A DNA stretch of 64,000 nt, taken from assembly GCF_057098645.1 (NCBI RefSeq), contig NZ_CM169472.1; one strand, written 5' to 3'. Every line of letters begins with the position of its first letter. Position 1 is the stretch's first letter. Position numbers: made by a program. Of the stretch, positions 15,001 to 18,000 are shown piece by piece.

Positions 15001-18000
15001 ACCAATACATTTTTGCTCGTCCAGTTGTACGCTATCGGACTGGAAAGTCAGAGCATTAACCGGACAAGCCGTAACGCAAGGGGCATTGTTGCAGTGATGG
15101 CAGGCCACCGGATTCGCAGCCAGGCCTTTCCCTACAACGTGGATACGTGGTCGAAAGTCACTGTAACTCAGCGGCCAGTTTTCTTGATTGTGTGCCACCG
15201 CACAGGCAATTTCACAAGCATGACAGCCTATACATTCCGCAGCTTCAGCAGCGATAAACTTATTCATTTGCATCCCTTTCATTTAATGAGTTATGTCTTC
15301 TCAAATTTCGCGATGCAATAAACGGGCATATATTAGGTAGCATGACCGTTTTAATTATAATTTTGCGACTGAGTTCAAATTATTGCCCCTCAATCTATGC
15401 CGCTTTCATTATTTCAACATTGCCGCCCCAAATAGCGCTATCCAGATAAAAACGATTAAATGCGAGAGTGCGACATGCCAGAATGATTAATGAAATATCA
15501 ATATGAGAAAATTACAGATAATTCCATTGTCAGGTTCTCTTCTCATTTTCGTGGTTTAAGCACGATTATGTGATTGCCTCCGCAATTCCTGTCTCTAACT
15601 CCCCTTCCTCGCAAAAACTGGCACTCCACGAGCATGTGTTTAGACAGTTTCATTAACGTAAACGGTTGCTTTTTACTCTGGCGGGCGAAAGGAGAAACAC
15701 TGATGAGCGCCATAGATTCCCAACTTCCCTCATCTTCTGGGCAAGACCGCCCAACTGATGAGGTTGACCGCATATTATCACCAGGAAAGCTGATCATACT
15801 CGGTCTGCAACACGTCCTTGTCATGTACGCAGGTGCAGTCGCTGTTCCTCTTATGATTGGTGACCGACTGGGCCTCTCAAAAGAAGCTATTGCGATGCTC
15901 ATTAGCTCGGATCTCTTTTGCTGCGGGATCGTCACATTATTGCAATGTATCGGTATCGGCCGCTTTATGGGGATCCGCCTGCCGGTGATTATGTCGGTAA
16001 CGTTTGCTGCTGTAACACCAATGATAGCCATTGGGATGAACCCGGATATCGGCCTGCTGGGGATATTTGGTGCCACTATCGCCGCGGGTTTTATCACCAC
16101 ATTATTAGCGCCACTTATCGGTCGCTTGATGCCTTTATTTCCGCCACTGGTTACCGGTGTGGTTATTACTTCTATCGGGCTTAGCATCATTCAGGTGGGT
16201 ATTGACTGGGCCGCCGGAGGTAAAGGGAATCCGCAATATGGTAATCCCGTTTATTTAGGTATCTCCTTTGCCGTCTTAATTTTTATCTTGCTCATTACTC
16301 GCTATGCGAAAGGATTTATGTCCAACGTCGCCGTATTACTGGGGATTGTATTTGGCTTTTTACTTTCGTGGATGATGAATGAAGTCAATTTATCCGGGCT
16401 ACATGATGCCTCGTGGTTTGCGATTGTCACCCCGATGTCGTTTGGTATGCCGATTTTCGATCCCGTTTCCATTCTGACCATGACTGCCGTGTTAATCATC
16501 GTGTTTATCGAGTCGATGGGGATGTTCCTGGCACTGGGTGAAATAGTCGGTCGTAAACTCTCTTCGCACGATATTATTCGCGGGCTGCGTGTCGATGGCG
16601 TAGGGACAATGATAGGCGGAACGTTTAACAGCTTCCCCCATACGTCATTTTCTCAAAACGTTGGCCTGGTTAGCGTGACGCGCGTTCATAGCCGCTGGGT
16701 GTGTATTTCTTCGGGAATTATATTAATCCTGTTTGGCATGGTGCCAAAAATGGCGGTGCTGGTAGCCTCCATTCCGCAATTTGTGCTGGGCGGCGCTGGT
16801 CTGGTGATGTTCGGCATGGTACTGGCGACAGGGATTCGAATTCTGTCGCGCTGTAACTACACCACCAACCGTTACAACCTCTATGCTGTAACTACACCAC
16901 CAACCGTTACAACCTCTATATTGTGGCGATCAGTCTCGGCGTTGGCATGACTCCGACGCTCTCTCACGATTTCTTTTCTAAGTTACCGGCCGTACTGCAA
17001 CCGCTGCTACATAGCGGCATTATGCTCGCAACCCTTAGCGCCGTTGTGCTGAATGTCTTCTTTAATGGCTACCAGCATCATGCTGACCTGGTGAAGGAAT
17101 CCGTCTCTGATAAAGATTTAAAAGTCAGGACAGTACGTATGTGGCTTCTGATGCGCAAGCTGAAGAAAAATGAGCATGGAGAATAATATGAATTTTTTAA
17201 TGCGCGCTATATTCAGTCTGCTGTTGCTTTTTACTCTCTCTATTCCTGTCATTTCTGACTGTGTTGCAATGGCCATTGAAAGTCGCTTCAAATATATGAT
17301 GCTACTTTTTTAAATGGTTTTTACCTGTCGACATCCGCTCAAAACGGGCGGTTGTCGATAAACGCTCACTTGGTTAATCATTTTACTCTTCAATTATCTA
17401 TAATGATGAGTGATCAGAATTACATGTGAGAAATTATGCAAACGGAACACGTCATTTTATTGAATGCACAGGGAGTTCCCACGGGTACGCTGGAAAAGTA
17501 TGCCGCACACACGGCAGACACCCGCTTACATCTCGCGTTCTCCAGTTGGCTGTTTAATGCCAAAGGACAATTATTAGTTACCCGCCGCGCACTGAGCAAA
17601 AAAGCATGGCCTGGCGTGTGGACTAACTCGGTTTGTGGGCACCCACAACTGGGAGAAAGCAACGAAGACGCGGTGATCCGCCGTTGCCGTTATGAGCTTG
17701 GCGTGGAAATTACGCCTCCTGAATCTATCTATCCTGACTTTCGCTATCGCGCCACCGATCCGAATGGCATTGTGGAAAATGAAGTGTGTCCGGTATTTGC
17801 CGCACGCACCACCAGTGCGTTACAGATCAACGATGATGAAGTGATGGATTATCAATGGTGTGATTTAGCTGATGTATTACGCGGTATTGATGCCACGCCG
17901 TGGGCGTTCAGTCCGTGGATGGTGATGCAGGCGACAAATCGCGAAGCCAGAATACGATTATCTGCATTTACCCAGCTTAAATAAAAAACCCCGACATTTG

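What the first reader, a model, noticed from the sequence alone, without database searches (positions are those of the whole stretch)
17188..17313. Unannotated 41-codon hydrophobic ORF between uacT and idi
An ATG one nucleotide after the uacT stop opens a 41-aa ORF with a Leu/Phe-rich predicted membrane helix (MNFLMRAIFSLLLLFTLSIPVISDCVAMAIESRFKYMMLLF). It may be a small membrane protein coupled to uacT translation, or chance.
Basis: seen in the sequence. Interest (0 to 1): 0.3.

Follow-up and report, generated by a model that had tools for sequence, protein, structure and literature searches.

The report
Known small membrane protein gene yqfG
The 41-codon ORF just after uacT is real, but it is the already annotated E. 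coli gene yqfG, which encodes a tiny inner-membrane protein; relatives of it lie directly behind urate-permease genes in several other enterobacterial lineages.

Summary
It is not unannotated. It is yqfG (b4684), 100% identical to K-12 YqfG and annotated in every RefSeq E. coli genome sampled.

Published work shows YqfG is an integral membrane protein, predicted N-in/C-out, and a substrate of the RseP intramembrane protease in vivo and in vitro. Its function is unknown.

- Substitutions are mostly synonymous: K-12 vs E. albertii has 8 synonymous and 2 non-synonymous changes (p=7e-5). The two other reading frames show no such bias.
- The neighbouring annotated mini-ORF yqfH is broken by stop codons in related genomes, so the test discriminates.

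A profile search found 38-42 aa relatives that share a C-terminal SRF-x-aromatic motif, usually ending in Phe. Every member whose context I read lies directly downstream of a UacT-type permease gene, even where that permease is only about 42% identical and the other neighbours differ. The gap is -1 to +4 nt, except in Kluyvera, where it is 66 nt. This suggests, but does not show, that YqfG works with the urate permease.

In this window uacT itself is frameshifted by a 35-nt tandem duplication that none of 5,426 complete E. coli genomes carries.

Verdict: already known; low interest.

The parts
17188..17313 (+). yqfG (b4684) coding sequence, 41 codons plus TAA. It encodes a small single-pass inner-membrane protein.
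   Evidence: 100% identical to K-12 YqfG and annotated in RefSeq. Purifying selection is specific to this frame. AF2 predicts one helix over residues 3-40. Hydropathy: GRAVY 1.41.
17178..17181 (+). GGAG Shine-Dalgarno motif for yqfG, inside the last codons of uacT, 6 nt before the ATG.
   Evidence: Read from the sequence. Purine-rich SD-like motifs occupy the same place in the other lineages: GGTG, AGGA, GGAGG, GGGGG.
17184..17190 (+). uacT stop / 1-nt spacer / yqfG start junction (TAA-T-ATG).
   Evidence: The junction geometry is kept in Escherichia and Citrobacter while the stop codon varies (TAA, TGA, TAG) and the spacer base varies. Distant members have TAATG overlaps or 2-4 nt gaps.
15703..17186 (+). 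uacT (ygfU), the urate:H+ symporter gene upstream. In this window it is interrupted by a frameshift.
   Evidence: tblastn of UacT orthologues splits into 15703-16884 and 16887-17183 in different frames. ORF list. K-12 annotation.
16850..16919 (+). Perfect 35-nt tandem duplication (2.0 copies of GCTGTAACTACACCACCAACCGTTACAACCTCTAT) inside uacT. It shifts the frame, giving a premature stop at 16950.
   Evidence: TRF: 100% matches, period 35. None of 5,426 complete E. coli genomes covers the duplication junction. The closest genomes map 401 query bases onto 366.
17326..17360 (+). Conserved stem-loop directly after yqfG, with no U tract. It may be the 3' end or stabiliser of the uacT-yqfG transcript.
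   Evidence: The 141-nt stretch 17300-17440, whose MFE structure contains this hairpin, folds at -40.3 kcal/mol with z = -4.7. In the consensus fold, 4 of 10 pairs carry compensatory changes across Escherichia and Citrobacter.
17310..17381 (-). yqfH (b4753), an annotated 23-aa convergent ORF that overlaps the yqfG stop by 4 nt and covers the hairpin.
   Evidence: Annotated and listed in PMC6001520. The ORF is interrupted by stop codons in another E. coli, E. albertii, cryptic Escherichia clades and Citrobacter.

Best explanation
Shown: the ORF is yqfG, a genuine and already catalogued protein-coding gene. Its 41-aa product is a hydrophobic single-helix inner-membrane protein. The layout is one Arg near the N terminus, a helix of about 15 hydrophobic residues, an invariant Pro, a short polar pair, and then a conserved C-terminal tail ...IESRFKYMMLLF. 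The N-in/C-out orientation is a prediction.

Inferred from geometry: it is made from the uacT transcript, using a Shine-Dalgarno motif embedded in the last uacT codons and an ATG one base after the uacT stop. Ribosomes finishing uacT are therefore placed to re-initiate on it.

Shown by others on tagged K-12 YqfG: the protein is degraded inside the membrane by the site-2 protease RseP.

Inferred here from gene linkage only, about 0.35 probability: YqfG-family peptides act together with UacT-type urate permeases as a small accessory or regulatory partner, in the way KdpF, AcrZ, MgtS or SgrT act on their transporters. RseP would set the peptide's level.

In this particular strain the upstream uacT is frameshifted, so any coupling to uacT translation would be lost and yqfG would depend on its own SD.
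For: Identity and annotation.

Coding selection:
- K-12 vs E. albertii: Sd 8/27, Nd 2/96, p=7e-5.
- E. albertii vs a cryptic Escherichia clade: pN/pS 0.10, p=8e-7.
- Citrobacter sp. R56 vs the L093 lineage: pN/pS 0.22, p=2e-7.
- Control frames +1 and +2 give pN/pS 0.55-5.7, with no significant excess of synonymous changes.
- Variable sites by codon position: 23/10/35.
- Length is exactly 41 codons in 11 sequences from Escherichia and the Citrobacter group, although dS is about 1 or more.

Negative control: the yqfH ORF decays in the same genomes.

Membrane protein and RseP substrate: PMC4597795 and PMC10470546. The AF2 helix and hydropathy agree.

Linkage to the permease:
- Every family member whose context was read lies immediately downstream of a Xan_ur_permease gene.
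- These are E. coli, E. albertii, cryptic Escherichia, Citrobacter sp. R56, C. amalonaticus, C. enshiensis, Kluyvera, and contigs L093 and L095-L106.
- Three lineages have a permease only about 42% identical to UacT, though still closer to UacT than to XanQ.
- Downstream neighbours differ: idi, rhaS/R-like genes, xdhC/yqeC, or an FdhF-like oxidoreductase.

Separate idi transcription: a sigma-70 promoter is reported in the yqfG-idi spacer (PMC3946193), and a conserved hairpin sits between the genes.
Against: No experiment links YqfG to UacT, and its function is stated as unknown in the literature read.

An AF2 run on a UacT-linker-YqfG fusion gave lower confidence for the YqfG segment (pLDDT 52-68) than YqfG alone (70-92 over the first 40 residues). 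That gives no sign of a confident docking pose. The tool returns no PAE, so this is weak evidence.

The family is patchy. UacT orthologues in C. freundii, Serratia oryzae, Pluralibacter gergoviae, Morganella, Hafnia, Edwardsiella and Aeromonas have no such gene downstream, so the permease does not need it.

Kluyvera has a 66-nt spacer with a hairpin and its own SD, so tight coupling is not universal.

No structure sequesters the yqfG SD (z = +0.5), so coupling is not obligatory.

I could not read the paper that first reported the gene (Hemm 2008), or any ribosome-profiling tables, to confirm native expression.
Confidence: 0.85

Rival explanations
1. YqfG is a pre-peptide. The N-terminal 23-24 residues act as a Sec signal peptide, signal peptidase I releases a 17-18 aa C-terminal peptide (DCVAMAIESRFKYMMLLF) into the periplasm, and RseP merely clears the leftover signal peptide, as it does for other signal peptides.
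For: The n-h-c layout is present: R6, a hydrophobic core at 7-19 and Pro20. Sites that fit the (-3,-1) rule occur after residue 23 (VIS|D, AIS|E) or at VQA|G in Kluyvera. The strongest conservation is in the C-terminal tail, not the helix. The RseP papers chose YqfG because it resembles a signal peptide.
Against: In the wider family the corresponding segment is AVQQAI, IVQQGI or AVRQAI, which does not fit the -3/-1 rule. The 'mature' part is itself very hydrophobic (mean hydropathy about 1.2). No cleavage has been reported apart from that by RseP.
Confidence: 0.1
2. The peptide sequence is irrelevant. The ORF matters only because translating it keeps ribosomes on the 3' end of the uacT mRNA, protecting it from Rho or RNases or tuning idi expression.
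For: The start is tightly juxtaposed to the uacT stop. A conserved hairpin lies right after the ORF.
Against: Amino-acid sequence is under purifying selection, and R6, P20 and the SRF motif are kept at about 30% overall identity and saturated dS. A purely cis role would not conserve residues or exact length.
Confidence: 0.04
3. It is a chance ORF, or a type I toxin-like hydrophobic peptide unrelated to uacT.
For: A 41-codon open frame has a chance probability of 0.14. YqfG is handled by RseP like the Hok toxins. A convergent transcript (yqfH) overlaps its 3' end.
Against: Frame-specific dN/dS well below 1 and conservation across genera exclude chance. There is no repeated-locus pattern. The convergent yqfH ORF is not conserved, though antisense transcription itself was not examined. 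Strict linkage to a permease gene is unlike toxin-antitoxin loci.
Confidence: 0.02

Closest known systems
E. coli K-12 YqfG (b4684, YP_002791254.1; RefSeq WP_001010156.1)
   Same: The 41-aa sequence is identical. The position is the same: 1 nt after uacT, before idi, convergent with yqfH.
   Different: Nothing in the gene itself. The upstream uacT in this window carries a 35-nt frameshifting duplication that K-12 and all complete genomes searched lack.
Small transporter-associated membrane proteins of E. coli (KdpF with KdpABC, AcrZ with AcrB, MgtS with MgtA/PitA, SgrT with PtsG, CydX with CydAB). Named from general knowledge, not tested here.
   Same: It has fewer than 50 aa and one hydrophobic helix. 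It is encoded beside, and probably co-transcribed with, a transporter gene. The linkage is conserved across genera.
   Different: No binding or functional effect on UacT is known. The AF2 fusion gave no support. Many UacT orthologues lack the peptide.
Remnant Sec signal peptides and other small membrane protein substrates of RseP (YkgR, YshB, Blr, HokB/E)
   Same: Predicted type II (N-in/C-out) orientation, a tiny periplasmic part, and RseP cleavage in vivo by chromosomal RseP and in vitro by pure enzyme. YqfG is a 'class I' substrate (PMC10470546).
   Different: It is a free-standing gene product, not the leader of a larger exported protein, and it has a conserved C-terminal motif of its own.

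Membership tests
YqfG orthologue (E. coli b4684) | Sequence identity to K-12 YqfG over the full length | tested here: met
   tblastn: 41/41 identical. One synonymous difference at the DNA level.
YqfG orthologue (E. coli b4684) | Syntenic position ygfT / uacT - yqfG - idi / lysS | tested here: met
   Annotated regions of O145 RM9872 and MG1655 match the window's gene order.
Small inner-membrane proteins of E. coli (50 aa or fewer, one TM; Hemm/Storz class) | 50 aa or fewer with one predicted transmembrane helix | tested here: met
   41 aa. Best 15-residue hydropathy 2.56, GRAVY 1.41. AF2 predicts a single helix over 3-40.
Small inner-membrane proteins of E. coli (50 aa or fewer, one TM; Hemm/Storz class) | Protein actually synthesised and found in the membrane | not testable with these tools
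   Reported for HA-MBP-YqfG (integral membrane association, PMC4597795). The original detection paper (Hemm 2008, PMC2614699) is not held.
Protein-coding gene under selection | Excess of synonymous over non-synonymous change, specific to this frame | tested here: met
   pN/pS 0.07-0.52 in frame 0, with p down to 2e-7. Frames +1 and +2 show no significant excess of synonymous change.
RseP (S2P) substrates | RseP-dependent intramembrane cleavage | not testable with these tools
   Published for the identical K-12 sequence, in vivo with plasmid and chromosomal RseP and in vitro.
Sec signal peptide / exported peptide precursor | Conserved signal peptidase I site (small residues at -1 and -3 after an n-h-c region) | tested here: inconclusive
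   Compatible sites exist in Escherichia, Citrobacter and Kluyvera members but not in the QQ-type members of the wider family. I had no dedicated predictor.
Bacterial lipoprotein | Lipobox L-[AS]-[GA]-C with an invariant Cys | tested here: not met
   The residues before Cys25 are I-S-D. Cys25 is replaced by Gly, Ser or Ala in other members.
Transporter accessory small subunit (functional analogy) | Conserved genetic linkage to the transporter gene | tested here: met
   All lineages examined place the gene directly after a UacT-type permease gene, while the other neighbours vary.
Transporter accessory small subunit (functional analogy) | Physical interaction with, or effect on, the transporter | tested here: inconclusive
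   The AF2 fusion model gave pLDDT 52-68 for the YqfG segment, lower than alone. No PAE or coordinates were available, and no experiment is known.
Curated protein family (Pfam / NCBIfam HMM) | Match above the curated cut-off | tested here: not met
   No family reached threshold for E. coli, Citrobacter or Kluyvera members. PGAP's name therefore does not come from an NCBIfam profile.

The most novel reading that the evidence does not exclude
YqfG belongs to a previously undescribed family of 38-42 aa membrane peptides. Members share an N-terminal Arg, a hydrophobic helix, an invariant Pro and a C-terminal (I/L)-x-S/G-R-F-x-aromatic motif, usually followed by L-L-F at the C terminus. These peptides would be dedicated partners of UacT-type (NCS2) urate permeases, made by re-initiation at the permease stop codon, adjusting permease stability or activity from the periplasmic side, with RseP setting their level. 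As far as I could find, no small subunit has been described for an NCS2/NAT transporter.
Probability: 0.3. Interest if true: 0.5.

Novelty: already known. Interest (0 to 1): 0.15.

Why it matters
As a finding it adds nothing to the E. coli gene list. yqfG has a b-number, a RefSeq protein record and two papers that use it as a model RseP substrate.

What may be useful is the comparative picture assembled here. The peptide is under clear purifying selection. It belongs to a wider family that no Pfam or NCBIfam model covers. In every case I could inspect, it is tied to a urate-permease gene.

That gives a concrete, cheap hypothesis for a protein whose function is officially unknown: test urate uptake and UacT levels in a yqfG mutant, with and without RseP. 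It also gives a possible physiological reason for RseP cleavage.

The frameshifted uacT in this strain is a natural test of whether YqfG synthesis depends on uacT translation.

Tried and rejected
- Chance ORF: rejected by frame-specific dN/dS and conservation across genera.
- Known RNA instead of an ORF: the only Rfam hit is an Enterococcus sRNA model at 20.9 bits against a gathering score of 100 (E=0.022). I treat it as chance.
- SD sequestration that would enforce coupling: the fold of 17110-17250 is no more stable than shuffles (z=+0.5).
- Pfam and NCBIfam: no family.
- Lipoprotein: no lipobox, and the Cys is not conserved.
- AF2 on a UacT-GS30-YqfG fusion, to look for docking: the YqfG segment was less confident than alone, so there is no support. 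The tool gives no PAE, so this stays inconclusive.
- Terminator scan: the consensus scan did not call the hairpin after yqfG because it has no U tract.
- Literature I could not read: Hemm 2008, Hemm 2010 and Fontaine 2011 are not held. Supplements of two ribosome-profiling / small-protein papers are not held. Native expression therefore rests on citations within the RseP papers and on my memory of Hemm 2008.
- Strains carrying the uacT duplication: none among 5,426 complete genomes.

Full report
**1. The observation**

The sequence reads ...CAT GGA GAA TAA T ATG AAT TTT TTA... The stop of the uacT frame is at 17184-17186, one spacer base follows, and an ATG at 17188 opens 41 codons ending in TAA at 17311-17313. 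A GGAG motif lies at 17178-17181, 6 nt upstream of the ATG. The mechanical ORF starts earlier, at an in-frame ATG at 17170 (47 aa), but alignment with relatives supports 17188. A 41-codon open frame on its own has a chance probability of about 0.14, so the case rests on comparison with other genomes.

**2. It is not unannotated**

A megablast of 17000-17500 against 5,426 complete E. coli genomes matched 5,393 of them at 95% identity or more. In the 29 of 30 rank-sampled records where the match covered the ORF, the feature under it is 'yqfG: protein YqfG', next to uacT, yqfH (or a 'hypothetical protein') and idi. In MG1655 the gene is b4684 (3032817-3032942), 1 nt after uacT (b2888) and convergent with the 23-aa yqfH (b4753). 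The same layout occurs in O145 strain RM9872, which is 100% identical to the window here. The window's protein is 41/41 identical to K-12 YqfG, with one synonymous DNA difference.

**3. What is published**

- Akiyama et al. 2015 (PMC4597795) describe YqfG as a small membrane protein of unknown function, predicted type II (N-in/C-out).
[quoted passage not shown] Pro substitutions at residues 8-15 alter cleavage.
- Yokoyama et al. 2023 (PMC10470546) place YqfG among 'class I' RseP substrates. It is cleaved with HA-MBP or 3xFLAG tags, by plasmid-borne and chromosomal RseP, and in vitro by purified enzyme.
- Both cite Hemm et al. 2008 for the gene's discovery. That paper, Hemm 2010 and Fontaine 2011 are not in the library.
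- Shimada et al. 2014 list a constitutive sigma-70 promoter in the yqfG-idi spacer.
- VanOrsdel et al. 2018 list yqfH.

**4.

I collected yqfG DNA from the following lineages:
- E. coli, three sequences
- E. albertii
- two cryptic Escherichia lineages
- Citrobacter sp. R56, C. amalonaticus and C. enshiensis
- two unnamed contigs

All are exactly 41 codons with no indel or stop, although dS between Escherichia and the Citrobacter group is about 1 or more.

Nei-Gojobori counts:

| Pair | Synonymous | Non-synonymous | pN/pS | p |
|---|---|---|---|---|
| K-12 vs E. albertii | 8.0/27 | 2.0/96 | 0.07 | 7e-5 |
| E. albertii vs cryptic clade | – | – | 0.10 | 8e-7 |
| Citrobacter sp. R56 vs L093 | – | – | 0.22 | 2e-7 |
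| K-12 vs Citrobacter species | – | – | 0.4-0.5 | dS saturated |

The same sequences read in frames +1 and +2 give pN/pS of 0.55-5.7, with no significant excess of synonymous change. Variable sites fall 23/10/35 on codon positions 1/2/3.

As an internal control, the overlapping annotated yqfH ORF is interrupted by stop codons in another E. coli, E. albertii, the cryptic clades and Citrobacter. The test therefore separates a conserved gene from a lineage-specific ORF.

**5. A wider family**

- A word-indexed search with E. coli YqfG found only Escherichia and Shigella entries, plus one 216-bp 'Vibrio' contig that is probably contamination.
- A scan of one genome per species with UacT as bait turned up a 54%-identical 41-aa ORF in Citrobacter sp. 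R56. It also found a 38-aa relative in Kluyvera genomosp. 1. Both lie downstream of uacT.
- A profile of these found C. amalonaticus and C. enshiensis members.
- An exhaustive HMMER search of 1.84 billion representatives gave 30 hits at E<1e-3. They include much more distant 38-42 aa proteins such as MTLTRLLFALITLLLLAIPIVQQGIAQGLNGRFSYALLF and MWLRVLASLLLLAVVALPVIAQGTASGLEGRFSWALSFFS.
- The shared pattern is an Arg near the N terminus (shifted to position 4 in P0102), 13-15 hydrophobic residues, an invariant Pro, and a polar pair (SD, SE, QQ or QA). A Gly/Ala-rich stretch follows, then (I/L)-x-(S/G)-R-F-x-(F/Y/W), and in most members L-L-F at the C terminus.
- No Pfam or NCBIfam model covers it.
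- AF2 on the family alignment predicts one continuous helix over residues 3-40. pLDDT is about 90 over the first 30 residues and falls to 51 at the C terminus.

**6. Linkage to the urate permease**

Every member whose context I could read lies directly downstream of a Xan_ur_permease gene.
- Escherichia and Citrobacter have stop-N-ATG. The stop varies (TAA, TGA, TAG) and so does the spacer base.
- L097 has a 3-nt gap, L100 a 4-nt gap, and L096 a 2-nt gap after a UacT-like C terminus.
- L103 and L106 have TAATG overlaps.
- Only Kluyvera has a 66-nt spacer, with a hairpin and its own SD.

The permease is 80-95% identical to UacT in most lineages. In L100, L103 and L106 it is only about 42% identical, though still nearer to UacT than to XanQ at about 26%.

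The downstream neighbours differ: idi; rhaS/R-like regulators; xdhC/yqeC; or an FdhF-like molybdopterin oxidoreductase. A ygfT-like gene usually sits divergently upstream. So the small gene travels with the permease and not with idi.

The distribution is patchy. An HMM of 21 members found nothing in the loci of C. freundii, Serratia oryzae, Pluralibacter gergoviae, Morganella, Hafnia, Edwardsiella, Aeromonas or the Burkholderiales.

**7. How it most likely works**

Shown:
- It is a real coding gene.
- Its product is a membrane-integrated peptide that RseP degrades. This comes from the literature, on tagged protein.

Inferred from geometry: it is translated from the uacT mRNA, with its SD inside uacT's last codons and its start within a few bases of the uacT stop. 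That arrangement favours termination-reinitiation. The region shows no unusual structure that would make coupling obligatory. A conserved hairpin with compensatory changes follows the ORF, and idi has its own reported promoter. yqfG therefore looks like the last cistron of the uacT unit.

Inferred from linkage only: the peptide acts with the permease. The best-conserved part is the predicted periplasmic tail, which suggests a specific contact surface there. I put this at roughly one in three.

An exploratory AF2 run on a UacT-linker-YqfG fusion gave lower confidence for the YqfG part than YqfG alone. It offers no support, but without PAE it cannot refute.

**8. Rivals**

- **Signal-peptide-like precursor.** This fits the n-h-c layout and (-3,-1)-compatible sites in Escherichia, Citrobacter and Kluyvera. 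It does not fit the QQ-type members.
- **Purely cis role of translation.** This is contradicted by amino-acid conservation.
- **Chance ORF or a toxin.** This is contradicted by selection and by the strict permease linkage.

**9. This strain's peculiarity**

A perfect 35-nt tandem duplication at 16850-16919 shifts the uacT frame. Translation from the uacT start at 15703 ends at 16950, 238 nt before yqfG. No complete E. coli genome covers the duplication junction, and the otherwise identical O145:H28 genomes lack it. It is either a strain-specific inactivation of uacT or an assembly artefact.

**10. Verdict**

The finding is already known. The family-level link to urate permeases is a modest new lead and still needs an experiment.

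Noticed in passing
window 16850-16919 (within uacT, 15703-17186): A perfect 35-nt tandem duplication frameshifts uacT, giving a premature stop at 16950 and removing the last ~67 native residues of the urate permease. 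None of 5,426 complete E. coli genomes has it, including the otherwise identical O145:H28 strains. It is either real pseudogenisation or an assembly artefact.
   Followed up: partly
window 17310-17381, minus strand (yqfH, b4753): The annotated 23-aa yqfH ORF is intact only in K-12-like sequences and in this window. Stop codons interrupt it in E. coli SCPM-O-B-8794, E. albertii, cryptic Escherichia clades and Citrobacter. It lies entirely over a conserved RNA hairpin, so its conservation as a protein is doubtful.
   Followed up: partly
window 17326-17360: A strong stem-loop lies directly after yqfG (the 141-nt stretch 17300-17440 containing it has z = -4.7). Its structure is conserved, with compensatory changes in 4 of 10 pairs across Escherichia and Citrobacter. 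It has no U tract and the consensus terminator scan does not call it. It may be the 3' end or stabiliser of the uacT-yqfG mRNA.
   Followed up: partly
window 17399-17404 (TATAAT), 31 nt before the idi ATG at 17436: A perfect -10 hexamer is nearly invariant across Escherichia and Citrobacter (one species has TATACT). A genomic-SELEX paper reports a constitutive sigma-70 promoter in the yqfG-idi spacer but proposes different hexamers (TTGTCG-18-AATCAT).
   Followed up: no
loci L100, L103, L106 (about 2530-4126): Distant YqfG-like genes (about 30% identity) overlap or abut the stop of a permease only about 42% identical to UacT. An FdhF-like molybdopterin oxidoreductase follows, and a ygfT-like gene lies divergently upstream. 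This looks like a variant urate-utilisation cluster in organisms I could not name.
   Followed up: partly
proteins P0001, P0004, P0006, P0020, P0022, P0041, P0043, P0083: A few E. coli genomes carry altered yqfG forms. These include C-terminal extensions from loss of the TAA stop, in-frame duplications inside the hydrophobic helix (FSLL or IF repeats), and frameshifted N-terminal halves. Some longer forms are only gene-caller start choices at upstream in-frame ATGs.
   Followed up: no
locus L015 (Hafnia paralvei) about 3916-5500: A second NCS2 permease gene sits in tandem right after the UacT orthologue. It is the closest named relative (60-64%) of the permeases paired with the distant YqfG-like genes, yet no YqfG-like ORF is present in that locus.
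   Followed up: no
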